Source: SAR86 cluster bacterium (GTDB lineage: Bacteria > Pseudomonadota > Gammaproteobacteria > Magnimaribacterales > TMED112). From it: 64,000 nt of DNA. The position numbers and the translations under genes are program-made. Where the stretch lies: contig QOPD01000002.1 of the NCBI GenBank assembly GCA_003331605.1, positions 118,188 through 182,187 of the forward strand, read 5' to 3'. The notes under the pieces are model-generated. The model was given only the letters and a program-made list of their open reading frames with translations. It made no database searches and had not been told where the DNA came from. Shown here piece by piece: positions 16,545 through 63,840 of the stretch (within the stretch, counting starts at the first letter, position 1; every line of letters begins with the position of its first letter).

Positions 16545-17257
16545 TGAAAGAGTTGCATTTAAGTTTATATAGATTTGATCCAGAGAAAGATCAAAGGCCT
16601 TATATGTCTGATTATGTTATTGAAATGAATAATTCTGGAAACATGATGGTAATTGATGCTATCAGAAAAGCTCAAGAGCAAGATTCAACAGTGACTTTTA
16701 GGAGGTCATGTGCTCAGGGAGTATGTGGCTCTGATGGTGTAAATATGAACGGACAAAATGGTTTGGCATGCATAACAGCGGTTAGCGATGTTGCAATAGG
16801 GAACAAACTTGAAGTGCGACCATTGCCAGGGCTTCCAGTCATTAAGGATCTTATCGTTGATATGAAACCTTTCTATGATCAGTATGAAAAGGTAAAGCCG
16901 TTCTTAGATAATGATGAAGAGGTTACAACTGGCCATGAAAGACTACAAAGCCCAAAAGAGAGAGATATGCTGGATGGTTTATATGAATGTGTGCTGTGCG
17001 CATGTTGTTCAACAAGCTGTCCATCTTTTTGGTGGAACCCTGAAAAATTCGTAGGTCCTGCAGCTTTACTACAAGCTTATAGATTTATTGCTGATACTAG
17101 AGATAAGCAAAAAGCACAAAGACTAAAAAAGTTAAATGATGCCTTTAGTGTTTATCGATGCCATGGAATTATGAATTGCACATCTGTTTGTCCTAAAGGG
17201 CTGAATCCATCCAAAGCGATCAATGAGATTAAGAAGGAGCTAAGAAAAATAGGATAG
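16541..17257 (+). CDS. sdhB: Succinate dehydrogenase iron-sulfur subunit
   Basis: 238 aa; three Cys clusters ([10 protein letters not shown]; [12 protein letters not shown]; [14 protein letters not shown]). Confidence 0.97.
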
Positions 17258-20049
17258 TGTCAAAATCAATTGAGGAGAAAATCCTAGACAGCTTCAAATA
17301 TGGAGGTAACTCAAATTACCTCGAAGATCTCTACCAAAAATACCTTTTAGACCCTAATGAAATAGACAGTGATTGGAAAAATTACTTTGATTCCATCCAT
17401 ACAAATGTAGAAGAGAGAAATCATCAAGCTATTCAAGACCGATTTAAGAATATCCGACTCAGCAGAAAAAGCAGCAATGAAGAGAAAACTGTTCTTGAGT
17501 CACCAAAAAGTTCGGAAGTACAAAATTTAATCAATGCATTTAGAAGAAGAGGTCATCAGGTTGCAAAAATTGACCCTCTTCACCTAAGAAAAGAAAAAAA
17601 TTTCTCAGACCTAAATCTTTCATTTCATAACTTATCTGAAGTTGATCTAGAAACATCATTTGCTCTTTCAAATTTTCAAGATGGAAAAACAATGACACTA
17701 AGTGAAATCAAGACCTCAATTGAGCAAACCTATACTTCAAATATTGGTTACGAATTCATGCATATTGTCGATAGCAAGATTCGTAGATGGTTCCTAGATA
17801 AAATTGAGGGAAAAGCAAACCCATACGCTTTTACTAGCGATGAAAAAAAACAAATTCTCAAGCGTGTTGTTGATTCAGAAGGTCTTGAAAAATTTCTAGC
17901 TTCTAAATATCCAGGTGCCAAAAGGTTTGGATTAGAGGGGGGAGAGTCCTTAATTCCACTCTTAGATACACTTATTGAAGATTTTGGTTCTAAGGGGGTA
18001 AAAGAAGTTTGTTTAGGCATGTCTCACAGAGGCCGTCTGAACGTTTTAATAAATGTAATGGGTAAGAAGCCTAGCGAGCTATTTTCAGAGTTTGCCGAGG
18101 AACTAGAGGCGCATGATGCCAGAACAGGAGATGTAAAATATCACTTAGGATTTTCCTCCAATGTTCTAACAAGTGGTGGCGAAGTACACCTCTCACTTGG
18201 TTCAAACCCATCTCATTTAGAGATTGTAAATCCTGTAATTCTTGGTTCAGTTAAAGCTCGACAAGACAGAAGACAAGATGAGAAGAAGAAAAAAGTTGTT
18301 CCAATCTTAATGCATGGTGATGCGTCTTTTGCTGGGCAGGGTGTAGTAATGGAGATTCTTCAACTGTCACAAACTAGAGCTTTTGGAGTTGGAGGAACAG
18401 TGCACATTGTTGTGAATAATCAAATTGGGTTTACCACTAGTTTGAAAAAGGATGCAAGGTCAACTGAATATTGCACCGACGTTGGTAAAATGATTGAAGC
18501 CCCAATATTGCATGTCAACGGCGATGATCCAGAAGCTTGTGTTACTGCAGCAAAACTAGCTGTTGAATTTAGAGATACTTTTAAACGAGATATTATTATT
18601 GATTTTGTTTGCTACAGAAGAAGAGGTCACAATGAAAGCGATGAGCCGTTTGCTACTCAACCTTTAATGTATAGCAAAATCAAATCAAAAAAGGCGGTTA
18701 CTGAACTTTATTCTGAAAAGTTAATTTCAAATAACACAATAGATATTGAACAATTTGAAAACTTCAAATCAAACTATAGAGCAGATATGGAAAAAGGAGA
18801 ACTGGTAGCATTATCGATGGCTTCAGACCCTGACCGATCAATGTATTTTGACTGGACCCCATACCTAAAACCAGATAAGAAAAAAAACTACCCAACAGCT
18901 GTTGATATGACACAGCTTAAAAAGTCATTTAAATTTTGCTTAGAAATCCCTGAAAGTTTGCAAATGCAAAAACAAGTTGAAAAGCTCTACCAAGATAGAA
19001 CTTTGATGGCAAAAGGAGAGATGAGAATAAATTGGGGTTTTGCAGAAATGGTTGCATACGCGACTTTACTGCAGGATGGTTACCCAGTGAGAATAACAGG
19101 CCAAGATGCTAGAAGAGGAACATTTTCCCATAGGCACTTAGTTGTTAAGGATCAAATCTCTGGTGAAGGTTTTGTTCCCATATCACGACTAAATAAAGGG
19201 AATAAAAAATTTGAAATATTTGACTCTTTATTATCTGAGGAGGCTGTTCTTGGATTTGAGTATGGCTACTCCTCAACATGGCCAGAAGGCCTAGTAATTT
19301 GGGAAGCTCAGTTTGGGGATTTTGCTAACGTTGCCCAAGTAGTTATTGATCAGTTCATTGTCAGTGCTGAAACAAAATGGGGAAGACTTTCAGGATTAAC
19401 TATGTTTCTACCTCATGGGTATGAGGGTCAAGGCCCTGAACATAGTAGCTGTCGATTGGAAAGGTTTTTACAGCAATGCGCGTATGATAATATCCAAGTC
19501 TGCGTTCCCACATTGCCGTCACAAATATTTCATTTGCTTAGACGTCAAACTGTAAACCCACAGAGAAAACCACTGGTCGTCTTGACTCCAAAAAGTTTAC
19601 TGAGAAATCCTCAAGCAACCTCAGAATTGGCTGATTTAACCAATGGCACATTCAAAAATATAATTGTCGATGAAACAAACAAGCAACCAAGAAAAGTTAT
19701 TTTGTGCTCAGGTAAGGTTTATTTTGATATCTTAACTGAAATAAAAGAGAAAAAAATTGAAGATATCCAGCTAATAAGGGTTGAGCAACTTTATCCTTTT
19801 CCTGAATCTGAGCTTATCGCCTGCACCAAAAAAATAAAATGTAAAGATTTTTACTGGGTTCAAGAGGAGCCAGAGAATATGGGCGCCTGGTTGATGATAC
19901 GCCATAGGATAGAAAAAGTTCTTAATGAAACAAAAAAAGGATACAAACTGAGCTGTATTGCAAGAAATCCATCGGCAGCCCCAGCAGGCGGATATCAAAA
20001 ATACCATCAAAAACGACAAAAAGAGATAGTTAGGAAAGCTTTACAGTAA
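17257..20049 (+). CDS. sucA: 2-oxoglutarate dehydrogenase E1
   Basis: 930 aa; GTG start overlapping the sdhB stop; GMSHRGRLNVL and HGDASFAGQGVV motifs. Confidence 0.95.
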   Translation: MSKSIEEKILDSFKYGGNSNYLEDLYQKYLLDPNEIDSDWKNYFDSIHTNVEERNHQAIQDRFKNIRLSRKSSNEEKTVLESPKSSEVQNLINAFRRRGHQVAKIDPLHLRKEKNFSDLNLSFHNLSEVDLETSFALSNFQDGKTMTLSEIKTSIEQTYTSNIGYEFMHIVDSKIRRWFLDKIEGKANPYAFTSDEKKQILKRVVDSEGLEKFLASKYPGAKRFGLEGGESLIPLLDTLIEDFGSKGVKEVCLGMSHRGRLNVLINVMGKKPSELFSEFAEELEAHDARTGDVKYHLGFSSNVLTSGGEVHLSLGSNPSHLEIVNPVILGSVKARQDRRQDEKKKKVVPILMHGDASFAGQGVVMEILQLSQTRAFGVGGTVHIVVNNQIGFTTSLKKDARSTEYCTDVGKMIEAPILHVNGDDPEACVTAAKLAVEFRDTFKRDIIIDFVCYRRRGHNESDEPFATQPLMYSKIKSKKAVTELYSEKLISNNTIDIEQFENFKSNYRADMEKGELVALSMASDPDRSMYFDWTPYLKPDKKKNYPTAVDMTQLKKSFKFCLEIPESLQMQKQVEKLYQDRTLMAKGEMRINWGFAEMVAYATLLQDGYPVRITGQDARRGTFSHRHLVVKDQISGEGFVPISRLNKGNKKFEIFDSLLSEEAVLGFEYGYSSTWPEGLVIWEAQFGDFANVAQVVIDQFIVSAETKWGRLSGLTMFLPHGYEGQGPEHSSCRLERFLQQCAYDNIQVCVPTLPSQIFHLLRRQTVNPQRKPLVVLTPKSLLRNPQATSELADLTNGTFKNIIVDETNKQPRKVILCSGKVYFDILTEIKEKKIEDIQLIRVEQLYPFPESELIACTKKIKCKDFYWVQEEPENMGAWLMIRHRIEKVLNETKKGYKLSCIARNPSAAPAGGYQKYHQKRQKEIVRKALQ

Positions 20050-20062
20050 TAGAATATAGACC

Positions 20063-21280
20063 ATGGCCGAAGATATTAAATCTCCAATCTTTCCAGAGTC
20101 AGTTTTCGAAGGAACTTTATCAAACTGGGTCAAAAAAGAAGGTGAAACATTTAAACAAGACGATGTTCTTGCAGAGATTGAAACTGATAAGGTTGTAATT
20201 GAAGTAACTGCTCCATCTGACGGAACTATTGAAAAGATTTTAATTCCTGAAGGAACAACAATTAAAAGCTCAGAGGTAATAGGGAACTTTACCAAAGGAA
20301 CTAAGACTTCAGCTCTAAAACCTGCTCCAAAAGAAAATATTAAAACAAGCATATCATCTAATAAAAAAGATCAGGCAAAATCAAAATCTATTTCAGAGGA
20401 ACCTCTATCTAAGGGTTTTAGAATGGGGCCAGCGGCAAAAAAACTACTTAATGAAAAAGATTTATCAATAGAGAACATTAAAACTACATCTAAAAAAGGT
20501 GTAGTTACCAAGGCAGATATTCTAAAGGCACCAGATAAAAAACCTCAAAAAGCTATTACTCAAGATGATGCTTTCAGTACACCAAGGTCAGAAAGAGTTC
20601 CAATGACAAGACTAAGATCAGTAGTTGCTAATAGGTTGCTTGAATCACAGGCCCAGACAGCATCTTTAACTACTTTCAATGAGGTTGATTTATTTGAAGT
20701 TAAGAATTTAAGAGCAAAATATAAAGATGTATTTGAACAGAAATTCGGAGTAAAGCTTGGATTTATGGGCATGTTTATGAAAGCATCCTCAATTGCACTA
20801 CAAGAAATGCCAATAGTTAACGCTTCTATCGACGGCGAGGATATTCTATACCATGGATACCAAGACATAGGCGTAGCAGTTTCAACAGACAGAGGCCTTG
20901 TTGTACCAGTAATTAGAGATGTTCAGGATCTCTCAATTGCTGAAATTGAATTATCTCTTGTTGAGCACTCTACTAAAGCTAGAGAGGGGAAGCTTTCGAT
21001 TGAGGAAATGACAGGTGGAACTTTTACAATATCAAACGGTGGCGTTTTTGGATCTCTTCTTTCAACCCCAATTCTTAATCCACCTCAATCTGCAATTTTG
21101 GGCATGCATAAAATTCAAGATAGGCCGGTTGTAGTAAATGGCGAGATTCAGATTAGGCCTATGATGTATTTGGCACTAACTTACGATCATAGGTTGCTAG
21201 ATGGGAAAGATGCAGTATCATTCCTTGTAAAAATTAAAGAATCTCTGGAATCTCCAGAGTCTATGATGTTAGGAGTATAG
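20063..21280 (+). CDS. sucB: Dihydrolipoyl succinyltransferase E2
   Basis: Lipoyl domain ([11 protein letters not shown]), Ala/Pro/Lys linker, catalytic DHRLLDG. Confidence 0.95.
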
Positions 21281-22699
21281 ATGGATTTTGATGTATTGGT
21301 GATTGGAGGTGGTCCGGGAGGCTATGTAGCTGCAATTAAATCCTCTCAATTAGGATTAAATACAGGATGTATAGAATTTGATTCTACCAAAGATGAAAAG
21401 GTAAAACTTGGAGGCACTTGCTTAAACGTTGGATGCATTCCATCAAAATCACTTCTTGATTCATCATACAAGTTCTATCAATTAAAAGATGGCTTAGCTG
21501 AGCATGGCATCTCAACAGGTAAACCTAAACTAGATATTTCAAAAATGATGGATAGAAAAAATGCTATTGTAAAAAAACTTACAGGGGGCGTTTCACATCT
21601 TTTTTCACACAATAAAGTTACTTCCATTCATGGGAAAGGAAAGCTGGTAAATCCAACAACTGTAGAAGTCACTGACAATAAAGGCAAAAAAAATACTTAT
21701 ACTGCTAAGAATATAATTCTTGCTGCTGGCTCTCGTCCAATAAATATACCTAGTGTGCCTTGGAACGGGACAAGTGTAATTGGAAGTTCTGGTGCTCTTG
21801 AACTCGAAGAAGTGCCCAAGAGCCTAGCAATCATAGGTGCAGGAGTAATTGGCCTTGAATTAGGAAGTGTTTGGTCAAGACTTGGTTCTAAAGTTGAAAT
21901 ATTTGAAGCTGAAAAGAACCTGCTCCCAATGCTTGATCGAGACGTGGTGAAGGTAATTGAAAGAGAATTTAAGAATCAAAACCTTAATATCAACCTAGGT
22001 TGTTTTGTAAAAGGTTCAAAAACATCAAGAAGTGGAGTTTCTTTAGAAGTTGAAATTGAAGGCAAATTACAGAAAAAGTCCTTCGACAAAGTCATAGTTG
22101 CTGTTGGCAGAAGACCATTCACAGAAGACTTATTAGCCAAAGATTGCGGCCTGGAATTAGATGAGAGAGGATTCATAACTGTTGATGATTATTGCCAAAC
22201 ATCATTGCGGAATGTCTATGCAGTTGGTGACATTGTAAGAGGACCAATGTTGGCCCATAAAGCTATGGAAGAGGGTGTCATGGCGGCTGAAAGAATTGCA
22301 GGAAAAAAAATGGAAGTTAATTATAACTTAGTGCCTTCAGTAATTTATACGCACCCTGAGATTGCATGGGTAGGTAGAACAGAGGAAGATTTAAAAAGTG
22401 ATGGCGTAGAATTCAAGAAAGGGAATTTTCCATTTGCAGCTAGTGGCAGGGCATTAGCAGCTGGCGATTCAGCAGGATTAGTAAAAGTGCTTGCAGATAA
22501 AGATACGGATGAAGTTTTAGGAATTCAAATTTTTGGGAACGGTGCTGCGGAAATATTGCAACAAGGTTTGATCGGTATGGAGTTTTCTGCTAGTTCAGAA
22601 GATTTTGGTTTAACCATGTTTAGTCATCCAACTGTTTCTGAGGCTTTGCATGAGGCTGCACTCGCAGTAAACAAGCAAGCAATTCATATTGGTAATTAA
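21281..22699 (+). CDS. lpdA: Dihydrolipoyl dehydrogenase E3
   Basis: 472 aa; GGGPGGY, GGTCLNVGCIPSK redox disulfide, C-terminal HPTVSE. Confidence 0.95.
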   Translation: MDFDVLVIGGGPGGYVAAIKSSQLGLNTGCIEFDSTKDEKVKLGGTCLNVGCIPSKSLLDSSYKFYQLKDGLAEHGISTGKPKLDISKMMDRKNAIVKKLTGGVSHLFSHNKVTSIHGKGKLVNPTTVEVTDNKGKKNTYTAKNIILAAGSRPINIPSVPWNGTSVIGSSGALELEEVPKSLAIIGAGVIGLELGSVWSRLGSKVEIFEAEKNLLPMLDRDVVKVIEREFKNQNLNINLGCFVKGSKTSRSGVSLEVEIEGKLQKKSFDKVIVAVGRRPFTEDLLAKDCGLELDERGFITVDDYCQTSLRNVYAVGDIVRGPMLAHKAMEEGVMAAERIAGKKMEVNYNLVPSVIYTHPEIAWVGRTEEDLKSDGVEFKKGNFPFAASGRALAAGDSAGLVKVLADKDTDEVLGIQIFGNGAAEILQQGLIGMEFSASSEDFGLTMFSHPTVSEALHEAALAVNKQAIHIGN

Positions 22700-23862
22700 T
22701 GAATTTACACGAATATCAAGCTAAAGAGCTATTTGAAAAATATGGCATGCCTGTATCTAAAAGAAGTTTAATAGCTAATAAAGAAAACATTGAGGATGCA
22801 CTCAATCAAATAAACTTCTTTGATGGTTGTGTTGCTAAAGTTCAAGCTCATACCGGTGGCAGGGGCAAGGTTGGCGGGGTCAAATTATGCAGCACAATTG
22901 AAGACGTAAAAGTTTTTGTCGATCAATGGCTTGGGAAAAATATTGTGACCATTCAAACCGACAATGAAGGTCTTCCTGTTAACGTAATTTCACTCGAAGA
23001 ATTAACAAATATAAATAAAGAGCTTTATATGAGTCTTGTCGTCGATAGAGGGTCAAAATCCATTTCGATGATAGTGTCTGAAGCAGGAGGAATGAATATT
23101 GAAGAAGTAGCTGAAACAAATCCTGAGAAAATATTAAAAGCTCAGTTAAATACAGATTTTAAAATTTCAGAAGATAAAGTTACTCATATTGCAAAACAGC
23201 TCTCATTAAATGAATCTCAAAGCAAAGAATTTAATGAAATAATTGATAGCTGTTGTCGGTTGTTTAAAGACAAAGATCTTAGTTTGTTGGAAATAAACCC
23301 CCTTGTTATTACAGACAAAGGACATTTGCATTGCTTAGATGCAAAAATAAATATTGATGAGAATGCACTTTACCGTCAAGAGGACTTAACAGCCTTAAGG
23401 GATGCCTCGCAAGAAGATCAAAGAGAATACGAAGCCAAGCAAAGTGATTTAAGTTATGTTGCCCTTGATGGCAATATTGGTTGCATGGTAAATGGGGCAG
23501 GATTGGCGATGGGAACAATGGATACCATAAAATTATACGATGGTGAGCCTGCAAATTTTCTTGATGTTGGTGGCACAGCAACAAAAGAAAGAGTTTCAAC
23601 AGCTTTTCAGCTGATTCTTTCAGATAAGAATGTTAAAGGTATTTTAGTTAACATCTTTGGAGGAATTGTGCGCTGTGATCTGATTGCTCAGGGTATTATT
23701 GATGCAATAAAAGAAAGGAGCGTGGATGTACCAATAGTTGTTAGGTTGCAAGGCAACCAATCCGACTATGGCAAAGAATTATTAAATCAATCAGGCTTGA
23801 ATGTTATTGGTGAAGACTCACTTCAGCTAGCCGCTCAGAGAATAGTGGAGCTAGTTAGATGA
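22699..23862 (+). CDS. sucC: Succinyl-CoA synthetase beta subunit
   Basis: [16 protein letters not shown]..., 387 aa. Confidence 0.97.
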
Positions 23863-24728
23863 GTGTCTTAATCAATAAAGAAACTAAAGCAATTTTTCAA
23901 GGGTTCACTGGGTCGCAAGCAACCATGCATGCTGAGCAATGCATTGAATATGGCACCAATGTTGTAGGAGGAGTTACTCCAGGCAAAGGTGGCATGACTC
24001 ATCTTGAAAAACCGGTATTCAGTTCAGTCAAAGAGGCATGCACACAAACATATGCCGATACAAGTGTAATTTTTGTTCCAGCTAAGTTCACTAAAGCAGC
24101 AATTATTGAGGCTGCAGAAGCTGGGATTAGTTTAATAATTTGTATCACAGAGGGTGTGCCAGTAATTGACATGATTGAAGTTACAAATGTGCTCAAACAG
24201 CACCCTGAAGTAAGACTGGTTGGCCCAAATTGTCCAGGAGTAATTACCCCAGGTGAGGCAAAACTTGGGATTATGCCAGCATCTATACACCAAAGAGGTT
24301 CTGTAGGAATTGTTTCAAGATCTGGGACTTTAACTTATGAGGCTGTAAAGCAAACGACTGATGTAGGGCTTGGTCAAAGTACTTGCATAGGCATAGGAGG
24401 CGACCCTATAAATGGAACTTCATTTATTGACTGCTTGAGAATGTTTGAAGAAGATCAGCAAACAGATTCAATAGTCATGGTAGGAGAGATTGGTGGTACT
24501 GCAGAAGAAGAGGCAGCTGAATATATTAAGAGCAATGTCACTAAACCAGTTGTATCTTATATTGCAGGAGTGACTGCACCTAAAGGTAAGCGAATGGGCC
24601 ATGCTGGAGCTATTATTTCAGGTGGTAAAGGAACAGCTCAAGACAAATTTAAAGCATTGGAGTCAGCAGGTGTAGGTGTTGTAACAGATTTAAATCTTAT
24701 TGGCTCTAAGTTAAAAGAGCTCCTTTAG
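23859..24728 (+). CDS. sucD: Succinyl-CoA synthetase alpha subunit
   Basis: 289 aa; [19 protein letters not shown] phosphohistidine loop. Confidence 0.97.
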
Positions 24729-55988: not shown

Positions 55989-56636
55989 ATGAATTGGGAA
56001 GAATTAATAGAATCAGAAACAAAAAAAGATTATTTTAAGGCGATAAAAAAAGCAATCTTAAGTGATAATCAAAATGGTAAATCGATATTCCCATATCCAA
56101 AAAATTATTTCAGAGCACTGGATTTTTGCTCTTACGAAGATTTAAAGGTTGTAATACTTGGTCAAGACCCATACCACACTCAAGGCGTCGCCGATGGTCT
56201 TGCTTTTTCATCTGGTATTGATAACTATATGCCTCCATCTTTGAGAAATATTTTTTTGGAATTAGAAGATGATATTGGTATAAAAAATCAAAACGTATCA
56301 TTGGAAGGTTGGGCAAAACAAGGAGTGCTTTTACTTAATTCATACCTATCAGTTCAAGAGGGTCAGCCACTATCTCACGCAAATATAGGTTGGGATCTTT
56401 TTACAAACAAAGTTTTAATTGAGGCAAGCAGAAAGTGCAATGTTGTCTTTATGCTATGGGGCAGCTATGCACGATCAAAAATAGATATCTTAGAAAGTCA
56501 AAATTTAATTTTAGAGGCTACTCACCCATCACCTCTTTCAGCTCACAAAGGATTTCTTGGGTGCAAGCATTTTTCAAAAGCAAATGCATATCTCGGCCGC
56601 CATGACATTAAACAGATTGACTGGCAACTAGCTTAG
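55989..56636 (+). CDS. ung: Uracil-DNA glycosylase
   Basis: GQDPYH, HPSPLSA motifs. ATG 55989 preferred over the track TTG 55980. Confidence 0.93.
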   Translation: MNWEELIESETKKDYFKAIKKAILSDNQNGKSIFPYPKNYFRALDFCSYEDLKVVILGQDPYHTQGVADGLAFSSGIDNYMPPSLRNIFLELEDDIGIKNQNVSLEGWAKQGVLLLNSYLSVQEGQPLSHANIGWDLFTNKVLIEASRKCNVVFMLWGSYARSKIDILESQNLILEATHPSPLSAHKGFLGCKHFSKANAYLGRHDIKQIDWQLA

Positions 56637-57336
56637 ATTTAAATAATTTATCGGCATTTTCAAAGCTTTTAAAGATATATTGTCCATAAAATATATTATC
56701 TACCTCAATTTCAAAAACCTCTTTGCCGACCTTTAGCAATTCATTCTTTTCATCTGCCGTTAGATCTTTGAAAATAGCCACGGTATTTTTTTTTGATCCT
56801 AAATATTTTAGCCTTGCAATTATTTCCTGCCCTCTGTAGCACCCTTTGGTGAATGAAACATATTTTTCCAAATTGTATCCAAATTCATTAGGTCTATTTT
56901 TTAAAGACATAGCATTACTAATGTCTACATCGAAGTGTAAGAGTTTAAGAAGATCCCAATTATTATTACTGTTATTAGAAGCTTTTGGCATAGCAGTGGT
57001 TTTTGTAAAACCAACGCCATCATAAATTCCTAAAATAATTTTTTCTTTGACTCCGATTTCACACTTATAGAACTTCGAATATTTCTCAAGCTCCCTCTTT
57101 AGAATTTCTGCAACATCATCCTTGATAATAATTTCTAAATTTTCACTGTTTATTACAGTTGCATTAGTTATAACAAAACCTTTCTCATCACAGAAAAGCA
57201 CATCTTTGTTCTGGGTTTTTTCTGAAATATCACCTGATGCTTGGCCCTGGATTAATTCTAAAGACCTCTTACCTGTAATTTCCAAGGTACAATAATTATT
57301 TAAAGTAAAATAACTTATGTCTAAATTGCTACTCAT
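56608..57336 (-). CDS. ygfZ: Folate-binding Fe-S cluster repair protein YgfZ
   Basis: KGCYRGQEIIARLKYLG signature. Start at MSSNLDISYFTL (comp ATG 57334..57336), aligned by eye to the E. coli YgfZ N-terminus. 3' end overlaps ung by 29 nt. Confidence 0.8.
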   Translation of the reverse strand: MSSNLDISYFTLNNYCTLEITGKRSLELIQGQASGDISEKTQNKDVLFCDEKGFVITNATVINSENLEIIIKDDVAEILKRELEKYSKFYKCEIGVKEKIILGIYDGVGFTKTTAMPKASNNSNNNWDLLKLLHFDVDISNAMSLKNRPNEFGYNLEKYVSFTKGCYRGQEIIARLKYLGSKKNTVAIFKDLTADEKNELLKVGKEVFEIEVDNIFYGQYIFKSFENADKLFKSKLVASQSV

Positions 57337-57550
57337 TAAAAAACTTAATTTTAAAGCAAGAAGAGGAATGAAAGAAACTTCTGAAATCTTAGGCAAGCTA
57401 CTTGATTCTATCAATACATTTACTGATAACGAATTAAATCAACTTGAATGCCTTCTAAACTTAGATGATCAATATCTATTTGATTTATTTTTCAAGGAAA
57501 AAGATAGGTTTGATGAGGAGTTTCACGATTTAAAAAAATATTTAAAATGA
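57317..57550 (+). CDS. sdhE: FAD assembly factor SdhE (YgfY)
   Basis: 77 aa; KARRGMKETSEIL contains the RGxxE motif; LLNLDDQYLFDLF parallels E. coli LLECDDPDLFNWL. Divergent from ygfZ as in E. coli. Confidence 0.8.
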   Translation: MSKLLLIKKLNFKARRGMKETSEILGKLLDSINTFTDNELNQLECLLNLDDQYLFDLFFKEKDRFDEEFHDLKKYLK

Positions 57551-57586
57551 ATGAACTTAACTTAATTTTTGAGGTCAAAAGATAAC

Positions 57587-58126
57587 ATGAAAGTACAAAA
57601 TATCTCAGAACTTGTAGAGCTATCTCAATCTGGAGATGAATCAGCTTTTGAAATTTTGTTTAAAACTTTTCAAACAAGATTGCATCATTCTTTATTCAAA
57701 GTGTTGAGAAACTATCATGAAACCGAAGACATTGTGCAACAGGCTTTTATGAGAGCGTGGGAAAAGATTGGCACTTTTAAGGGGGAAGCAAATTTCTATA
57801 CTTGGCTTTATAGGATTGGCTTTAATTTAGCTATCACAAAAATTAATAAATCAAGGGAAAATCAAATAGATGAAGATTTTGAGCTAACTCTTAAATCAGA
57901 TGACAATGTTGTTCAAAATCTCACGGATAGACGCCTGGAAAATAAAATTATTGACTTGCTCAATCAGATATCAGAAGAACAAAGAACAGCGTACATCCTT
58001 TGTGAAATTGACTCTAAAAATTATGAGGAAATTGCAAATATTACCGATGTACCAATTGGCACTGTCAGGTCAAGAATCTTTAGAGCAAGACAGTTCTTAA
58101 TGGAGAACCTAAAAAACGAATTATGA
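57587..58126 (+). CDS. rpoE: ECF sigma factor RpoE/AlgU
   Basis: Start MKVQNISELVELSQSGDESAFEILF parallels the E. coli RpoE N-terminus. Region 2 (FYTWLYRIGFN) and region 4 (PIGTVRSRIFRAR) present. Confidence 0.9.
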   Translation: MKVQNISELVELSQSGDESAFEILFKTFQTRLHHSLFKVLRNYHETEDIVQQAFMRAWEKIGTFKGEANFYTWLYRIGFNLAITKINKSRENQIDEDFELTLKSDDNVVQNLTDRRLENKIIDLLNQISEEQRTAYILCEIDSKNYEEIANITDVPIGTVRSRIFRARQFLMENLKNEL

Positions 58127-58863
58127 AAGATATAACAGATTTTGATTTACAAAGACTATCATCATTTATTGATGGTGAGATGAGCAGAGAAGACATCAGA
58201 GAGCTTGTATTCGATATGGGGAAAAACTCAGAATTAAAGCAGTGCTACCTTAAGATGGTAGAGCTGAGCCATGCATCTTCTCACATTAAAACATTAAGTT
58301 TTACAAAAAAATTAAGCAACCTTTCATTGAATTCTCTACTTAAAGCTTTTTTTGAAAAGCTTGTTGCTCCTGTAGGTGTTTTCGCAGCAGGAGTTGTTAT
58401 GAGCTATACAGTAGTGAATTCTATTGTTTCAGAGAGCAACGAAAATAATGAAACTGCTACTGTTATTGCACAAGCTATTTCTTCAGCAGAAGCAAAGCAA
58501 ACGCTGCTAAACATTCAAAATGAAGAAATCATACAATTTGCTTCAAGACACTTTTCAAACACTCCAGATGTAAATATTCTTCCTGTTGGTTATGCTCCGA
58601 ATTGGGTACCATCCGGCTTCGTATCTGATCCTGCTAGATCAAGCAAATTTATTAATAACTCAAAAAGAAAACAATTTTCTATTTTTGTGACTAGTCCAGA
58701 AGCTTTCTCTTTGCCTGATGGCGCATATAGAAAGGAAAATTTTATACTCATTAAAGAAACCCATAACCACAATGGCGTTGCTCATACTCTTGCAGTTTTT
58801 GGCGATATAGATATTGAATCTGGTAAAAAAATCCTTAACTCTATAGAAGTTAAAAATCGCTAA
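58123..58863 (+). CDS. Anti-sigma-E factor: RseA/MucA-like N-domain, one TM, RseB/MucB C-domain-like periplasmic end
   Basis: LQRLSSFIDGEMS anti-sigma signature; TM LVAPVGVFAAGVVMSYTVV; C-terminal GYAPNWVPSGF...FSIFVTS...LAVFGDIDIESGKKILNSIEV resembles the RseB C-terminal domain. ATGA overlap with rpoE. Confidence 0.65.
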   Translation: MKDITDFDLQRLSSFIDGEMSREDIRELVFDMGKNSELKQCYLKMVELSHASSHIKTLSFTKKLSNLSLNSLLKAFFEKLVAPVGVFAAGVVMSYTVVNSIVSESNENNETATVIAQAISSAEAKQTLLNIQNEEIIQFASRHFSNTPDVNILPVGYAPNWVPSGFVSDPARSSKFINNSKRKQFSIFVTSPEAFSLPDGAYRKENFILIKETHNHNGVAHTLAVFGDIDIESGKKILNSIEVKNR

Positions 58864-60255
58864 ATGAAAAAACTAATCTCTTTCTTTCTGTTGCTTTCTT
58901 CTGCATTGTTTACGCAAAGTCTTGATTTTTCTGAGCTTGTTAAGGAGCAAAGAAATTCAGTTGTAAACATAGAATCAACCAGACGAATTGAAACACGAAT
59001 GAGTAGATCTTATGGCGGTTTTCCCGAGGAATTATTTAGAGAATTCGGTTTTCCAATGCCTGATCAAAGAGAGCCAAGACCTCAACAGCGCGAGGCTGTA
59101 AGCACAGGATCGGGCTTTGTTATATCCAGCGATGGTTATGTAATAACAAATTTTCATGTGGTGCAGGATGCTGACGAAGTAGTAGTCAAATTTTACGATA
59201 GAAAAGAGTTTAAGGCAGAAATAATTGGTACAGATGAATTAAGCGATATCGCATTGTTGAAAATTACAGACGATGAATTTATGCCAGTTGTGCTTGGCAA
59301 CTCAGACAGAGTAGAACAGGGAGATGGCGTTATAGCGATTGGATCACCTTACAATTATGACTTTAGTGTTACTTTTGGAATTATAAGTGCTAAGGGGCGT
59401 GGCATCACTTCAGGCAGAGGAATAGGTGACTATGTGCCATACTTACAGACTGATGCCGCTGTTAATAGAGGAAATTCAGGAGGCCCATTATTTAATCTTG
59501 ATGGTGAGGTTATAGGTATAAATTCGCAAATTTACTCAAGGTCTGGTGGAAATGAGGGTCTAGCATTTGCTATACCAATAAATGTTGCCTTGGAGGTCAT
59601 AGAACAACTTAAAGAAAGTGGAAAAGTATCTCGAGGCTACCTTGGAGTTCAAGGTGGTGAGGTTTCTAGTGATCTTTCAATAGCTCTTGGTATGGATAAG
59701 CCTTATGGTGCCTTGGTCAGGTCTGTCGTTGAGGGTGAGGCTGCGGAGTCAAGTGGGATCCTGTCTGGTGATGTTATTGTTGAAATTGATGGCAAGGAAA
59801 TAATTTATTTTAAAGATTTGCAACACAACATTGGAAGAACAAGACCAGAAACTGAAGTGGTTGCTAAAATCTTCAGAGAAGGAAAGTACATAAACCTTGA
59901 TATTATTGTTGGTGAACTACCTGTAGTGCAAGAAGTAAATGAAACGAAAGAGGAACCAAAAGATCCAGACTATCCGCTTGGCTTGAATCTTAGAGAGGTT
60001 GACCCAAACAATAGAGCACCAAATGATCCTGAATATGGTTTGAAAGTATTAAGAGTTTTCTCCGACTCTCCTGCCTTTGGCCAAATTTTTGAAGGTGACG
60101 TAATAACTAAAATCACCTTTAAAAATAAATCTTTTGAAATTACAACTTTAGATAGCTTCGTTAAAACACTTGAATCCTTTGATACAGGCGACATAATTCT
60201 TATAATTGGTACCCGCAATGGTGCCAACTTATTTGAGCCTGTAGAAATTGAGTAA
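58864..60255 (+). CDS. Periplasmic serine endoprotease DegP/MucD family (two PDZ domains)
   Basis: 463 aa with signal peptide; catalytic triad contexts TNFHVV, DIALLK, GNSGGPL. Confidence 0.9.
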
Positions 60256-62038: not shown

Positions 62039-62949
62039 TTATGTTAGAGGTATTTTTTTCACTGATTACACCCTTGGCAAATATCTTTTGGTTTAGCCTC
62101 TTAAATTTAGGGATATGTCTCATTTCAATTCATTGGATTTACGTTCGAAACCAAACAGGGGAGAATCCAAAGCATCACAGAGCCCTACAATCTATTGGGC
62201 TTGTACTGGCTCTACTTGCTATAGGGATTCTTTGGGTAAAGCAATGGAACATTGGTGATTTGCTTGCCTTTTATACAGTTTTTTCGGGTGTAGTTTATTT
62301 ATCCACGTTAAATCGAGACAAAAACGTTTTAAAAGAAGCAAGAGGTTGGTTTTTATCAATATTGTTTGTATTTGTCATACGCGGTTATATTTATGAGCCA
62401 TGGCAAATACCATCTAGCTCAATGAAACCCAACCTTGAGATTGGTGATTTTGTTTTAGTAAATAGAAATGCTTATGGTTTGGAAATCCCATTTACAGGCA
62501 GAGCAAAAATTTTATCCCGATCACCAGAAATTGGAGAAGTTGTGGTTTTCTTCCCACCGCATAAGCCAACAACACCATTTGTAAAAAGAGTGATTGCAAA
62601 AGGTGGCGACAGAGTTACTTATGCAAATAAAAAGTACTTTGTTAATGGCAATGAGCTTGAGGCAAGTTTCTTTTCTGAGGATATTTCAGGCGGTAATCTT
62701 TTTTATGAACAAAATAATAATATTAGCTACGTCATAAGAAAAATACCCTCTAGGCCAGCTGTAAACGGATCTTGGGAGATACCTGAAGGCAGTTTTTTTG
62801 TTTCGGGAGACAATAGGGATAATTCAAGCGATAGTCGTGAATGGGGTTACATCACTGAAGATGTCATATGGGGCAGAGCAGACTTTATCTGGATGTCTTG
62901 GCCTCAAAGCAATTTCCCTAATTTTTCCAGAGTGGGAAAGGTTGAGTAA
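62035..62949 (+). CDS. lepB: Signal peptidase I
   Basis: PSSSMKPNL (Ser), KRVIAKGGD (Lys), [11 protein letters not shown] boxes. Start is GTG 62035 (overlapping the lepA stop) or ATG 62041. Confidence 0.9.
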
Positions 62950-62955
62950 GCTTTA

Positions 62956-63840
62956 ATGATGAAATGTGGTTTTGTGACAATTATTGGTAAAACCAATGTC
63001 GGCAAATCTACATTTTTAAATGCATTCATAGGCAAGAAAGTCTCAATTACTTCAAAAAAATCACAAACAACTAGATCAAATATTTATGCTGTAAAAACTA
63101 CCAAAAGTCTTCAAGCAATATTCATTGATACTCCTGGAATTCACCTAAGAACTGAAAAAGCCCTCAATAAAGTGCTAAGAAAAAAACCTCTGGAAGCTAT
63201 TAATGATATTGATGTGATTCTGTATATGGTATCTGGAACAAAATTTGATCAAGTGGATCAAGACGCCTTGAATTTAATAAAAAACTCTACTTCAAAAAAG
63301 ATTTTATTAATAAATAAAATTGATTTAGTTACAGATAAATCCGCTTTATTTGAATTTGTTAAAAATCTCGAAGAAAAAAATCTTTTTGAATCTATCATCC
63401 CAATTTCTTCAGAAAAAGAATTAGGATTCGACATTGTACTAAATGAGCTTGAGAAAGTATTACCTGAAAATGATCTATTTTATCCACCGGAGGGGTTTGA
63501 TTTTCAGAGTATTAATTTTGAAATTAGTGAATTAATAAGAGAAAAGGTTATTCGGTTTCTTGGTGATGAGCTGCCCTATGAAACTGCCATCTTCCTTGAA
63601 AATGTAAGTGACTTAAAATCGCACTTTGAAATTAATGCATTAATTTATGTAGCAAAACAAAGTCAGAAAAAGATAGTAATTGGAGCAGAGGGGTCAAAGA
63701 TTAAACAAATCGGTACCAATGCAAGAAAAGAATTAGAAAATCATTTGGGTAGAAAAGTAAATCTAAACTTATGGTGTAAAGTTAAGAAAAACTGGCTGGA
63801 TAACCCCATCACACTTGAGAGCCTAGGCATAAAGAGCTAA
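62956..63840 (+). CDS. era: GTPase Era
   Basis: 294 aa; GKTNVGKST, DTPG, NKID, C-terminal KH domain. Confidence 0.95.
   Translation: MMKCGFVTIIGKTNVGKSTFLNAFIGKKVSITSKKSQTTRSNIYAVKTTKSLQAIFIDTPGIHLRTEKALNKVLRKKPLEAINDIDVILYMVSGTKFDQVDQDALNLIKNSTSKKILLINKIDLVTDKSALFEFVKNLEEKNLFESIIPISSEKELGFDIVLNELEKVLPENDLFYPPEGFDFQSINFEISELIREKVIRFLGDELPYETAIFLENVSDLKSHFEINALIYVAKQSQKKIVIGAEGSKIKQIGTNARKELENHLGRKVNLNLWCKVKKNWLDNPITLESLGIKS

What the first reader, a model, noticed from the sequence alone, without database searches (positions are those of the whole stretch)
58123..58863. One ORF that looks like an RseA/MucA N-domain fused to an RseB/MucB C-domain, replacing rseA-rseB-rseC
Between rpoE (57587..58126) and the degP/mucD-type protease (58864..60255) there is exactly one 246-aa ORF. 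E. coli has rseA-rseB-rseC at this position and Pseudomonas has mucA-mucB-mucC. The N-terminus (DFDLQRLSSFIDGEMSREDIREL) carries the LSxxxDGE signature of the cytoplasmic sigma-E-binding domain, followed by one TM (LVAPVGVFAAGVVMSYTVV). The last ~95 aa (GYAPNWVPSGFVSDPARSSKF..KQFSIFVTSPEAF..HTLAVFGDIDIESGKKILNSIEV) read, in the same order, like the small C-terminal domain of RseB. From memory, E. coli RseB has WTPTWLPQGF...LFSFSVNVN...ITIVGELPPQTAKRIAENIKF. That is the RseB domain that docks onto RseA. The large N-terminal lipid/LPS-sensing RseB domain has no counterpart here. If real, this is a minimal cis-fused envelope-stress sensor, and the way RIP proteolysis is gated would have to differ from the E. 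coli paradigm.
Basis: partly seen in the sequence, partly recalled or inferred. Interest (0 to 1): 0.55.

Follow-up and report, generated by a model that had tools for sequence, protein, structure and literature searches.

The report
Fused RseA–RseB anti-sigma factor in SAR86
In the abundant marine SAR86 bacteria, the three genes that normally restrain the envelope-stress sigma factor sigma-E are replaced by one conserved membrane protein that joins an RseA-type sigma-binding head to only the small RseA-docking domain of RseB and lacks the lipid-sensing domain, so the stress switch is probably gated more simply than in E. coli.

Summary
Window 58123..58863 (+) is a 246-aa ORF, the only gene between rpoE (57587..58126) and a DegP/MucD-type protease gene (58864..60255).

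- Residues 156-244 are homologous to the RseB/MucB C-terminal domain: hhalign 96.8-97.8 %, E 2e-10 to 1e-12. The top 11-13 Foldseek PDB hits of two AlphaFold models are all RseB/MucB. An HMM built only from canonical RseB C-domains finds this gene, and nothing else, in every SAR86 locus.
- Residues 6-42 resemble RseA_N (92 %, E 6e-7).
- There is one N-in/C-out transmembrane helix.
- No RseB N-domain and no RseA_C are detectable.

The gene is not an artefact. It is about 245 aa in 22 SAR86 species genomes (MAGs, single-cell genomes, one complete chromosome). The order sdhE-rpoE-X-degP-lepA is always kept, dN/dS is about 0.1, and a canonical sigma-E promoter is conserved upstream.

A singleton Pseudomonadales-like protein (P0109) shows the same kind of rseA-rseB deletion fusion arising independently.

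The mechanism is inferred, not shown: the RseB_C domain shields the anti-sigma factor in cis, without lipid A sensing.

Not tested: the rest of the genome (rseB, degS, rseP), and whether Xanthomonadales RseA has the same build. Verdict: new variant of a known kind, of moderate interest.

The parts
57552..57579 (+). Sigma-E-type promoter tGAACTT-N16-TCAAA in the 36-bp sdhE-rpoE spacer. The -10 element ends 7 nt before the rpoE ATG.
   Evidence: Sequence read and pattern match. The exact motif is at the same position in 18 of the 22 SAR86 loci that include this region, with close variants in the other 4; it is also present in sister-clade locus L024. Function as a promoter is inferred from the E. 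coli/Xanthomonas sigma-E consensus.
57587..58126 (+). rpoE: ECF sigma factor of the RpoE/AlgU type (179 aa)
   Evidence: Pfam Sigma70_r2 and Sigma70_r4_2. The best NCBIfam hit is TIGR02939 RpoE at 135.7 bits, below its equivalog cutoff of 236. It is 36 % identical to E. coli RpoE, and R168 aligns with E. coli R178.
58123..58863 (+). Gene X: the fused anti-sigma factor (246 aa), whole ORF
   Evidence: The family is conserved at about 245 aa, synteny is fixed, and dN/dS is 0.08-0.11.
58138..58287 (+). Cytoplasmic RseA_N-like anti-sigma domain (residues ~6-55), with the invariant S13-x-F15-x-D17-G18-E19 motif
   Evidence: hhalign against RseA_N: 92.1 %, E 6.3e-7. Against full-length RseA: 66 %, E 5.5e-5. 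Foldseek hit to MucA-cyto in the AlgU complex 8z6g_E, probability 0.85. A canonical RseA_N HMM ranks X first in most loci, E 2e-4 to 0.5. D17 aligns with RseA D11, the published contact of RpoE R178 (PMC7406223).
58360..58428 (+). Single transmembrane helix (residues 80-102)
   Evidence: This is the only hydrophobic segment (Kyte-Doolittle 2.0 over 19 aa). Flank charges are +4/-1 on the N side and 0/-3 on the C side, which indicates N-in/C-out.
58477..58557 (+). Conserved periplasmic helix (residues ~119-145; S121-x-E123-A124 ... H143 are invariant in both clades)
   Evidence: It has the highest mean pairwise identity of any region, 0.70. It is predicted as a helix with pLDDT 76-81 in a compact periplasmic model, pTM 0.70. 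There is no detectable similarity to RseA_C.
58588..58854 (+). RseB/MucB C-terminal-domain homologue (residues 156-244), beginning with the W-x-P-x-G-F motif
   Evidence: hhalign 96.8-97.8 %, E 2e-10 to 1e-12, aligned to E. coli RseB ~221-313. Foldseek top hits are all RseB/MucB, best 3.8 A over 89 columns on 3m4w_D. A canonical RseB_C HMM hits this ORF at E 9.8e-7, and its orthologues at 3e-11 to 3e-6. PF17188 weak hits in 23 of 27 members. PDB profile hit to MucB 191-289.
58864..60255 (+). degP/mucD-type periplasmic serine protease (463 aa; signal peptide, trypsin domain, two PDZ domains), third gene of the operon
   Evidence: TIGR02037 degP_htrA_DO scores 420.3 bits against a cutoff of 416.2. 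Pfam Trypsin_2 and PDZ_2 x2. N-terminal signal-like sequence. It follows X in every locus.

Best explanation
Gene X is the sigma-E anti-sigma factor of SAR86 bacteria. It is built as a fusion of an RseA-type protein with the C-terminal domain of RseB/MucB.

Shown here:
- It is a single-pass membrane protein with N-in topology.
- Its cytoplasmic head is homologous to RseA_N.
- Its last ~90 residues are homologous in sequence profile and predicted fold to the small RseB/MucB domain. In E. coli and Pseudomonas that domain holds the main RseA/MucA periplasmic helix.
- The large LolA-like RseB domain, which binds lipid A and buries the site-1 cleavage site, is absent. So are RseA_C and rseC.
- X is translationally coupled to rpoE and followed by degP, in an operon preceded by a conserved canonical sigma-E promoter. 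It is under strong purifying selection across the whole SAR86 order and in a sister clade.

Inferred:
- Origin: an in-frame deletion spanning the 3' end of rseA and the 5' two-thirds of rseB. The singleton P0109 shows exactly such an event in an unrelated lineage. The product then diverged in a streamlined genome.
- Mechanism: X holds sigma-E at the membrane. The tethered RseB_C domain packs in cis on the highly conserved periplasmic helix and protects the juxtamembrane segment from site-1 cleavage and/or from RseP. Envelope stress, sensed by a PDZ protease and not by a lipid A pocket, removes the periplasmic part. RseP and cytoplasmic proteases then free sigma-E, which re-induces its own operon.
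- Consequence: the E. coli two-signal gate (OMP plus LPS) would be reduced to a simpler input.
For: RseB_C homology:
- hhalign of A1 against a canonical RseB alignment gives 96.8 %, E 2e-10 over 87 columns.
- Sliced domains give 97.8 %, E 1.1e-12, with five negative-control comparisons at 1.2 % or below.
- A reciprocal HMM built from canonical RseB C-domains finds X in every SAR86 locus (E 3e-11 to 3e-6). The next hit outside X and its sister clade is at E 0.56, among 3,992 ORF segments.
- Foldseek against PDB: the top 11 hits (full-length model) and the top 13 hits (periplasmic model) are all RseB/MucB, then a gap.
- PF17188 is weakly hit by 23 of 27 members.
- The whole-library profile search hit P0109 (RseA_N + MucB_RseB_C at 73 bits) at E 7.7e-6.

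RseA_N homology:
- hhalign 92.1 %, E 6.3e-7.
- Sister-clade Pfam RseA_N hits up to 28.1 bits, above the GA of 24.
- The D17/R168 pair matches the published RseA D11-RpoE R178 contact.

Real gene:
- 76 protein clusters of about 245 aa.
- 22 species genomes, including single-cell genomes and the complete genome CP097968.1.
- Invariant synteny.
- dN/dS 0.08-0.11, lowest in the periplasmic half.

Operon and autoregulation: ATGA overlap, abutting degP, and a GAACTT-N16-TCAAA promoter at this position throughout the SAR86 loci (exact in most, close variants in the rest).

Deletion-fusion route: P0109 is RseA 1-~172 (61 % identical to a free RseA) joined to RseB ~213-340 (58 % identical to a free RseB). 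It lies between rpoE and mucD.

Compact helix-plus-domain model: pTM 0.70, with the helix at pLDDT 76-81.
Against: - The window protein alone gives no Pfam or NCBIfam hit to RseA_N, RseA_C, MucB_RseB or MucB_RseB_C. Every family-level PF17188 hit is below the gathering score (best E 1e-3).
- The conserved periplasmic helix shows no sequence similarity to the RseA/MucA alpha-I (RseA_C) region: hhalign score 7.3 against 8.6 +/- 2.0 for column-shuffled controls. Cis-docking therefore rests on position, conservation and an AlphaFold model whose coordinates and contacts I could not inspect.
- No DegS/AlgW or RseP gene lies in the 515 kb examined, so the proteolytic cascade is assumed, not shown.
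- A free rseB, or a free LolA-like partner, elsewhere in the genome is not excluded.
- P0109 is a singleton (one cluster member, one contig). It could be a rare mutant or an assembly error.
- The deletion-fusion origin of X itself cannot be proven, because no recognisable RseA_C or RseB linker remnant is left.
Confidence: 0.75

Rival explanations
1. Same architecture, different mechanism. The tethered RseB_C domain does not clamp its own helix. It is a docking site for a partner acting in trans. Candidates are a free LolA-like/RseB_N-like lipid sensor encoded elsewhere (a split, re-wired RseB) or the co-transcribed DegP/MucD protease. In that case LPS or misfolded-protein sensing would be retained through the partner.
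For: In canonical RseB/MucB the C-domain forms an extensive interface with the N-domain and stabilises its lipid-binding loop (PMC7400510). The C-domain of X is the second most conserved region and carries family-specific invariant surface motifs (LPDGxY, FGDIDxxSG) that canonical RseB lacks, which would fit a new partner. degP is invariably the next gene, 0-17 nt away. The linker helix has no RseA_C similarity.
Against: No RseB_N-like ORF exists in the window or in the +/-10 kb flanks of 26 related loci (best E 2.5). The periplasmic model is compact (pTM 0.70) and the helix gains confidence when it is modelled with the domain. A DegP-RseB_C interaction has no precedent in the papers read.
Confidence: 0.2
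2. X is an additional, paralogous anti-sigma-like protein. SAR86 also has a normal rseA and a full-length rseB/mucB elsewhere, so nothing has been replaced.
For: Only 64 kb of this genome and 20-kb pieces of the others were searched, so absence elsewhere is untested. The rpoE here scores below the NCBIfam RpoE equivalog cutoff (135.7 against 236 bits).
Against: X occupies exactly the rseA position: it is translationally coupled to the rpoE that sits in the conserved sdhE/nadB...rpoE...lepA-lepB-era neighbourhood shared with E. coli and with the P0109 locus. A canonical sigma-E autoregulatory promoter precedes this rpoE. SAR86 genomes are small (the complete chromosome is 1.0 Mb), which makes redundant systems unlikely. 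tblastn with E. coli RseA, RseB and RseC, and HMMs of RseA_peri and RseB_N, find nothing in 515 kb.
Confidence: 0.07
3. The C-terminal domain is not derived from RseB. X is an ordinary ECF anti-sigma factor with an unrelated small beta-rich periplasmic domain that only resembles RseB_C by convergence or by a common generic fold.
For: Sequence identity to RseB_C is only 13-21 %. Pfam hits are all sub-threshold. Foldseek TM-scores normalised to the target are low (0.23-0.28), because only one domain matches. Many anti-sigma factors carry LolA-like or other beta domains.
Against: Profile-profile E values of 1e-10 to 1e-12 cover the full domain collinearly, including the W-x-P-x-G-F start and the terminal helix. 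The reciprocal HMM is specific. RseB/MucB are the exclusive top structural hits, with a 10- to 100-fold E-value gap to the next fold. The gene lies where rseA-rseB lie in relatives. An independent RseA-RseB_C fusion (P0109) shows that the route is feasible.
Confidence: 0.04
4. The ORF is an artefact: a frameshift, a collapsed assembly junction, or a pseudogene that joins two genes.
For: The window is of unknown provenance and read coverage could not be checked. The one explicit RseA-RseB_C chimera found outside the family (P0109) is a singleton.
Against: The same ~245-aa ORF occurs in 76 protein clusters and 22 species-level genomes from independent MAG, single-cell and complete-genome projects. 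No length polymorphism occurs around the putative junction. dN/dS is 0.05-0.2 in every region. GC content runs smoothly across the gene.
Confidence: 0.01

Closest known systems
E. coli RseA-RseB-RseC / P. aeruginosa MucA-MucB-MucC sigma-E (AlgU) regulatory module (ECF02)
   Same: Same chromosomal slot (rpoE ... lepA-lepB-era). Same kind of sigma factor and the same autoregulatory promoter consensus. An RseA_N-type cytoplasmic anti-sigma domain with the LSxxxDGE motif and the D11-R178-type contact. A single TM segment. An RseB/MucB C-terminal domain on the periplasmic side.
   Different: One polypeptide instead of three genes. There is no RseB N-terminal LolA-like lipid A-binding domain, no RseB signal peptide, no detectable RseA_C (alpha-I) sequence and no rseC. 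The RseB_C domain is covalently tethered, so it cannot dissociate as free RseB does on lipid binding.
rpoE-rseA-mucD operons of Xanthomonas campestris and Stenotrophomonas maltophilia
   Same: A three-gene operon of sigma-E, a single anti-sigma gene and an HtrA/MucD protease, with no rseB between them. It is sigma-E autoregulated (PMC4229105, citing Bordes et al. 2011).
   Different: Those RseA proteins are described only as RseA homologues. Whether they also end in an RseB_C-like domain could not be tested here, because no sequence was obtainable. They did not appear in the exhaustive profile search at E <= 1e-3. SAR86 X is unrelated in lineage and much lower in GC.
P0109, a singleton 301-aa protein from a Pseudomonadales-like metagenome contig (L027)
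   Same: It has the build RseA_N - TM - periplasmic region - RseB_C and lacks the RseB N-domain. It lies between rpoE and mucD.
   Different: It is a recent event: it is still 58-61 % identical to free RseA and RseB proteins, and it retains the RseA_C alpha-I helix and the RseB inter-domain linker. It has one cluster member on one contig, so it is not an established family. X is ancient, fixed in an order-level clade, and diverged beyond Pfam thresholds.
Class I ECF anti-sigma factors with fused extracytoplasmic sensor domains (general ASDI-TM-sensor architecture)
   Same: The general logic of an anti-sigma domain, one TM segment and a fused periplasmic domain. Conservation of fused domains within anti-sigma groups is noted in PMC7406223.
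   Different: Here the fused domain is not a generic sensor. It is the partner-binding half of the system's own accessory regulator, RseB. That combination was not found in the literature searches.

Membership tests
RseA family anti-sigma-E factor | N-terminal cytoplasmic RseA_N domain (PF03872) | tested here: inconclusive
   The window protein gives no Pfam hit, and only 1 of 27 family members hits PF03872 (E 0.0048). However, hhalign gives 92.1 %, E 6.3e-7 over 31 columns. Sister-clade P0101 scores 28.1 bits, above the GA of 24. A canonical RseA_N HMM ranks X first in most loci. Homology is likely, but the curated threshold is not met by this sequence.
RseA family anti-sigma-E factor | Single TM segment, N-in/C-out, encoded immediately downstream of and coupled to rpoE | tested here: met
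   One hydrophobic segment at 80-102 obeying the positive-inside rule. ATGA overlap with rpoE, conserved in most loci.
RseA family anti-sigma-E factor | Periplasmic RseA_C domain (PF03873) containing the RseB-binding helix alpha-I | tested here: not met
   No Pfam hit in any of 27 members. hhalign 0.1 %. The score is below the shuffled controls even with the sister clade added. An RseA_peri HMM finds only P0109.
RseA family anti-sigma-E factor | Binds and inhibits sigma-E; degraded by the DegS/RseP cascade | not testable with these tools
   There is only indirect support: conserved D17 (= RseA D11) and sigma-E R168 (= R178). No degS or rseP lies in the DNA held.
RseB/MucB family | C-terminal domain MucB_RseB_C (PF17188) | tested here: met
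   hhalign 96.8-97.8 %, E 2e-10 to 1e-12. The canonical-only HMM hits X at E 9.8e-7 and its orthologues down to 3e-11. Foldseek's top hits are exclusively RseB/MucB. Caveat: the Pfam model itself stays below its gathering score (best E 1e-3, 23 of 27 members).
RseB/MucB family | N-terminal LolA-like lipid-binding domain MucB_RseB (PF03888) | tested here: not met
   No Pfam hit. hhalign of the C-domain and of the linker against RseB_N gives 0.2 % and 1.2 %. An RseB_N HMM has a best E of 2.5 in 515 kb. The protein has only ~55 periplasmic residues before the C-domain.
RseB/MucB family | Secreted soluble periplasmic protein with its own signal peptide, encoded by a separate gene after rseA | tested here: not met
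   The domain is the C-terminus of a membrane-anchored polypeptide. Only one ORF lies between rpoE and degP, in every locus.
ECF02 (RpoE-like) sigma/anti-sigma module | RpoE-type sigma factor with GGAACTT-N16-TCAAA autoregulatory promoter | tested here: met
   The best NCBIfam hit is TIGR02939 RpoE, though at 135.7 bits against an equivalog cutoff of 236. 36 % identity to E. coli RpoE. The promoter motif is conserved 6-10 nt upstream of the ATG, as an exact match in 18 of 22 SAR86 loci and as close variants in the other 4.
ECF02 (RpoE-like) sigma/anti-sigma module | Conserved context with separate RseA, RseB and RseC (as described for ECF02s1-s3 in PMC7826278) | tested here: not met
   The context is rpoE-X-degP-lepA. 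tblastn with E. coli RseA, RseB and RseC finds nothing in the window or the loci.

The most novel reading that the evidence does not exclude
SAR86 runs a minimal, self-contained sigma-E switch. The anti-sigma factor carries its own RseB-type clamp in cis, on a helix that has replaced RseA alpha-I. Activation therefore needs only one periplasmic input and no LPS/lipid A signal. The co-transcribed DegP/MucD-type protease, and not a dedicated DegS/AlgW, performs or controls the site-1 cut. This would show that the RseB C-domain is an autonomous protective module, and that the two-signal AND gate of E. coli is a later elaboration, or is dispensable, in one of the ocean's most abundant bacteria.
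Probability: 0.25. Interest if true: 0.65.

Novelty: new variant of a known kind. Interest (0 to 1): 0.48.

Why it matters
The sigma-E/RseA/RseB pathway is the textbook case of regulated intramembrane proteolysis gated by two signals: outer-membrane-protein C-termini through DegS, and LPS intermediates through RseB.

This family is a natural dissection of RseB. It keeps the RseA-docking C-domain as a covalent part of the anti-sigma factor and discards the lipid-sensing domain. It has been stable across an order-level clade of very abundant, genome-streamlined marine bacteria. That leads to testable predictions:
- The RseB C-domain alone should be enough to protect an anti-sigma factor.
- The stress response should be insensitive to LPS.
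- The site-1 protease may be a different one.

It also gives an annotation to a family that public databases list as 'hypothetical protein'. P0109 provides an example of how a deletion between adjacent, interacting genes can create a cis-fused regulator.

The significance is limited in three ways. The mechanism is inferred. The organisms are hard to grow. rseB-less rpoE-rseA-mucD operons are already known in Xanthomonadales.

Tried and rejected
1. Single-sequence Pfam and NCBIfam scans of X gave only noise (Rnk_N, BOFC_N, TIGR02147). They were rejected as chance because they are short, sub-threshold and not reproduced across the family.
2. I tested whether the conserved linker helix is a diverged RseA_C/alpha-I. 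It looked plausible by eye (DE.KQ ... QH in the sister clade against DEEKQRRLRAYLNQH in RseA). hhalign in default, low-mact and global modes, with either clade or both, gave probabilities of 0.1 % or less and a score below column-shuffled controls. It is not claimed.
3. I first read P0109 as an evolutionary bridge family. Its neighbours in sequence space are separate RseA and RseB proteins, and it is a singleton. It is therefore used only as a natural concatenation control and as a demonstration of the deletion route.
4. An 'FAAG' in the TM segment resembles the E. coli RseA 'VAA|C' RseP site and ClpX degron. It is not conserved in the family (most members have FSVG), so it was dropped.
5. I looked for an rseC/mucC remnant after P0109 and found none.
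6. I searched the window and 26 loci for degS, rseP, rseA, rseB and rseC. Only the operon's own degP matched DegS/DegQ.
8. Bordes et al. 2011 (PMC3019944 / 10.1128/JB.00884-10) is not held, and the ECF classification supplements are not held. The domain content of Xanthomonadales RseA could therefore not be checked.
9. Literature searches for 'MucB_RseB_C', for SAR86 with rpoE, and for fused RseA/RseB found no description of this architecture.
10. An Rfam scan of the window found nothing.
Full report
OBSERVATION. The ORF listing shows an ATG-initiated ORF at 58123..58863 (+) of 246 aa. It is flanked by an ECF sigma gene (ATG at 57587, stop at 58126) and a 463-aa protease gene (58864..60255). 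After these come lepA, lepB and era; upstream lie sdhE, a ygfZ-like gene (-) and ung. The rpoE stop overlaps the ORF start as ATGA, and the ORF's TAA directly abuts the protease ATG. The sigma has Sigma70_r2/r4_2 domains, and its best NCBIfam hit is RpoE (TIGR02939, 135.7 bits, below the equivalog cutoff). The protease passes TIGR02037 degP_htrA_DO (420.3 bits against 416.2). E. coli has rpoE-rseA-rseB-rseC-lepA-lepB at the equivalent place. GC is about 33 % and runs smoothly across the gene.

IS IT A REAL GENE? A search of 5.8 billion proteins found 76 clusters, essentially all 243-247 aa, from marine metagenomes. The alignment is conserved end to end with no indels near the putative junction. 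A scan of GTDB species genomes found it in 22 genomes, all SAR86-cluster bacteria or 'Gammaproteobacteria bacterium' MAGs. These include single-cell genomes and the complete 1.0-Mb chromosome CP097968.1. In every locus with flanks the order is ygfZ(-)-sdhE-rpoE-X-degP-lepA, with one gene between rpoE and degP. dN/dS against close relatives is 0.08 (L002) and 0.11 (L003). The periplasmic half is the most constrained (0.06-0.07). Mean pairwise identity is highest in a periplasmic helix (0.70) and the C-terminal domain (0.64), against 0.56 for the cytoplasmic domain. A frameshift, collapsed assembly or pseudogene is excluded at the family level.

WHAT ARE THE DOMAINS? Alone, the protein hits nothing meaningful in Pfam or NCBIfam. 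Scanning all 27 aligned members, 23 give a weak hit to PF17188 MucB_RseB_C (best E 1e-3), 4 to zf-HC2 and 1 to RseA_N. A family profile against PDB sequences gave a collinear whole-domain match to MucB residues 191-289, but a non-significant one (E about 1.5).

I built canonical RseB (A2) and RseA (A3) alignments from E. coli and Pseudomonadales-type proteins. The profile-profile results are:
- A1 against RseB: 96.8 %, E 2e-10, query 156-244 on E. coli RseB about 221-313.
- A1 against RseA: 66 %, E 5.5e-5, query 6-42.
The E. coli references lacked Met1, so printed E. coli numbers are one too low.

With sliced domains and negative controls:
- C-domain against RseB_C: 97.8 %, E 1.1e-12.
- N-domain against RseA_N: 92.1 %, E 6.3e-7.
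- C-domain against RseB_N: 0.2 %.
- Linker against RseB_N: 1.2 %.
- Linker against RseA periplasmic region: 0.1 %.
- N-domain against RseB_C: 0.2 %.
- C-domain against RseA_N: 0.3 %.

For a reciprocal test, I built an HMM only from canonical RseB C-domains and searched it against 3,992 six-frame ORF segments in 515 kb (the window plus 26 loci). It hit X in every SAR86 locus (E 3e-11 to 3e-6; the window copy at 9.8e-7). The next hit outside X and its sister clade was at E 0.56. The RseB_N HMM found nothing (best E 2.5), and the RseA_peri HMM found only P0109.

STRUCTURE. The full-length AlphaFold model is poor overall (pLDDT 59), but residues 160-245 are at about 80. Foldseek against PDB returned MucB/RseB chains as the top 11 hits (E 5e-5 to 7e-3, probability 1.00), then a gap to E 0.09. 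The AlgU-MucA(cyto) complex chain 8z6g_E appeared at probability 0.85 for the N-terminus. A periplasm-only model (residues 104-246, with the sister clade in the alignment) reached pLDDT 77.5 and pTM 0.70. Its C-domain is at 85-91 and the helix 122-144 is at 76-81. Its top 13 PDB hits are again all MucB/RseB (E 1.2e-5 to 1.1e-2). The best superposition is 3.8 A over 89 columns on 3m4w_D, and the next fold (Tsi3) is at E 0.047. The predicted topology, a beta sheet followed by a C-terminal helix, matches the description of the MucB C-domain in PMC7400510.

TOPOLOGY AND SIGMA CONTACT. There is one hydrophobic segment (80-102). Its N flank is basic (+4/-1) and its C flank acidic (0/-3), giving N-in/C-out like RseA. 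The invariant D17 of X aligns with RseA D11. R168 of the SAR86 sigma aligns with E. coli RpoE R178. That pair is a co-evolving contact typical of ECF02 (PMC7406223).

OPERON. An exact tGAACTT-N16-TCAAA lies in the 36-bp sdhE-rpoE spacer, at 57552-57579. The pattern occurs about twice by chance in 64 kb. However, the exact motif is at the same place in 18 of the 22 SAR86 loci that include this region, close variants are in the other four, and the sister clade has it too. It always ends 6-10 nt before the ATG. I infer an autoregulated rpoE-X-degP operon.

RELATIVES AND ORIGIN. An exhaustive profile search of 1.84 billion representatives found only 36 hits, so the family is narrow. A sister clade (P0092, P0096, P0101, P0104; 191-233 aa; 22-25 % identical in the periplasmic part) has the same architecture. 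It also has the same context, sdhE-rpoE-X-degP-lepA-lepB-rnc-era-recO. Its RseA_N Pfam scores reach 28.1 bits.

The one hit outside these clades with both halves is P0109 (301 aa, E 7.7e-6). It has RseA_N at 25 bits, a weak RseA_C hit, and MucB_RseB_C at 73 bits. Residues 2-~172 are 61 % identical to a free RseA, and residues ~175-298 match residues ~217-340 of a free RseB that is 58 % identical overall. The junction falls right after the RseA alpha-I motif 'ELDEEKQRRLRAYLNQHDRM'. It lies between rpoE and mucD in a 55 %-GC, Pseudomonadales-like contig. It is a singleton. I therefore do not treat it as a family. I use it as proof that a deletion from the end of rseA into rseB yields exactly this architecture, and as a natural concatenated target that the SAR86 profile recognises on both halves.

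MECHANISM.
Shown:
- X has an RseA_N-like head, one TM segment, a strongly conserved periplasmic helix and an RseB_C-like domain.
- It has no RseB N-domain.
- It sits in an rpoE-X-degP operon.

Established knowledge (PMC7400510):
- The RseB/MucB N-domain is the LolA-like lipid A pocket and buries the site-1 cleavage region (RseA 142-151).
- The C-domain binds the RseA/MucA alpha-I helix. This is the universal determinant of coupling, and alpha-I alone is sufficient to bind RseB.

Inference (moderate confidence):
- In X, the tethered RseB_C domain packs in cis on helix 119-145. It either protects the juxtamembrane segment from site-1 cleavage or keeps the periplasmic part too bulky for RseP.
- With no lipid pocket, activation should not respond to LPS intermediates. 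It would depend on a PDZ protease: an unlinked DegS/AlgW, or the co-encoded DegP.
- After the periplasmic part is removed, RseP and cytoplasmic proteases would release sigma-E.

The weak point is that the helix has no detectable similarity to RseA_C, and I could not inspect model contacts. The main mechanistic rival is that the domain docks a trans partner instead.

COMPARISON AND NOVELTY. The system works like the RseA/RseB or MucA/MucB module and descends from it. X fails defining features of both families taken singly: it has no RseA_C, no RseB N-domain, and is not a separate secreted protein. It is best filed as a fused variant. rseB-less rpoE-rseA-mucD operons are known and experimentally studied in Xanthomonas and Stenotrophomonas (PMC4229105). 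I could not obtain those RseA sequences, or Bordes et al. 2011, to see whether they share the RseB_C-like end. They did not surface in the exhaustive search. The ECF02 description in the ECF re-classification mentions only separate RseA, RseB and RseC (PMC7826278). Full-text searches found no description of an RseA-RseB_C fusion or of sigma-E regulation in SAR86. Public records call the family 'hypothetical protein', except one JGI fragment labelled 'negative regulator of sigma E activity'.

VERDICT. This is a new variant of a known kind, with interest about 0.5. The domain assignments are solid. The deletion-fusion origin is plausible. The cis-shield, LPS-blind mechanism is a testable inference.

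LIMITS.
- Only 64 kb of this genome and +/-10 kb of related loci were searchable, so genome-wide absence of rseB, rseC, degS and rseP is untested.

Noticed in passing
window 57552..57590 (and the same position in L002-L023, L024): The conserved sigma-E -10 element (TCAAA) ends only 6-10 nt before the rpoE ATG in every SAR86 locus. No room is left for a Shine-Dalgarno leader. This suggests a leaderless or near-leaderless rpoE mRNA in a 36-bp intergenic spacer.
   Followed up: partly
window 62949..62956 (lepB stop to era start); L002-L023: RNase III (rnc) normally sits between lepB and era, as it does in the sister clade (L024, L025) and in the P0109 locus (L027). In the window, lepB is followed directly by era, and tblastn with the L024 rnc finds no copy in the window or within +/-10 kb in any SAR86 locus. 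rnc has either been relocated or lost in SAR86.
   Followed up: partly
window 56608..57590 compared with L027:2069-5937 and E. coli L001: This looks like a footprint of genome streamlining. The P0109 locus has ygfZ-sdhE-cptA-nadB(-)-rpoE and E. coli has nadB divergent from rpoE. SAR86 has ygfZ(-)-sdhE-rpoE with cptA and nadB gone, and sdhE overlaps the 5' end of the ygfZ-like gene on the opposite strand (57317..57414).
   Followed up: no
L027:6001-6906 (protein P0109), 161-kb metagenome contig ERZ25070247 contig_14: This is an independent, apparently recent in-frame fusion of RseA (up to just after the alpha-I helix) to the RseB inter-domain linker plus C-domain. The RseB signal peptide and N-domain are deleted. 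No rseC is recognisable in the 305-bp gap before mucD. It is a singleton in 15 billion proteins.
   Followed up: yes
window 58123..58863, family alignment A1: The periplasmic part of this anti-sigma factor is more conserved than its cytoplasmic sigma-binding domain: 0.70 for the helix and 0.64 for the C-domain, against 0.56. The C-domain carries family-specific invariant motifs (LPDGxY; FGDIDxESG) that canonical RseB lacks. Their function is unknown.
   Followed up: partly
protein P0106 (660 aa): This protein has six tandem zf-HC2/RseA_N-like anti-sigma N-domain repeats followed by one TM segment. That is an unusual multi-headed anti-sigma architecture. It turned up as a weak hit and is unrelated to the window.
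   Followed up: no
window 14763..24728: By ORF sizes this looks like a standard sdhA/sdhB-sucA-sucB-lpd-sucC-sucD TCA-cycle cluster (593, 238, 930, 405, 472, 387, 289 aa). The Rfam scan of the whole window found no RNA family at gathering threshold.
   Followed up: no
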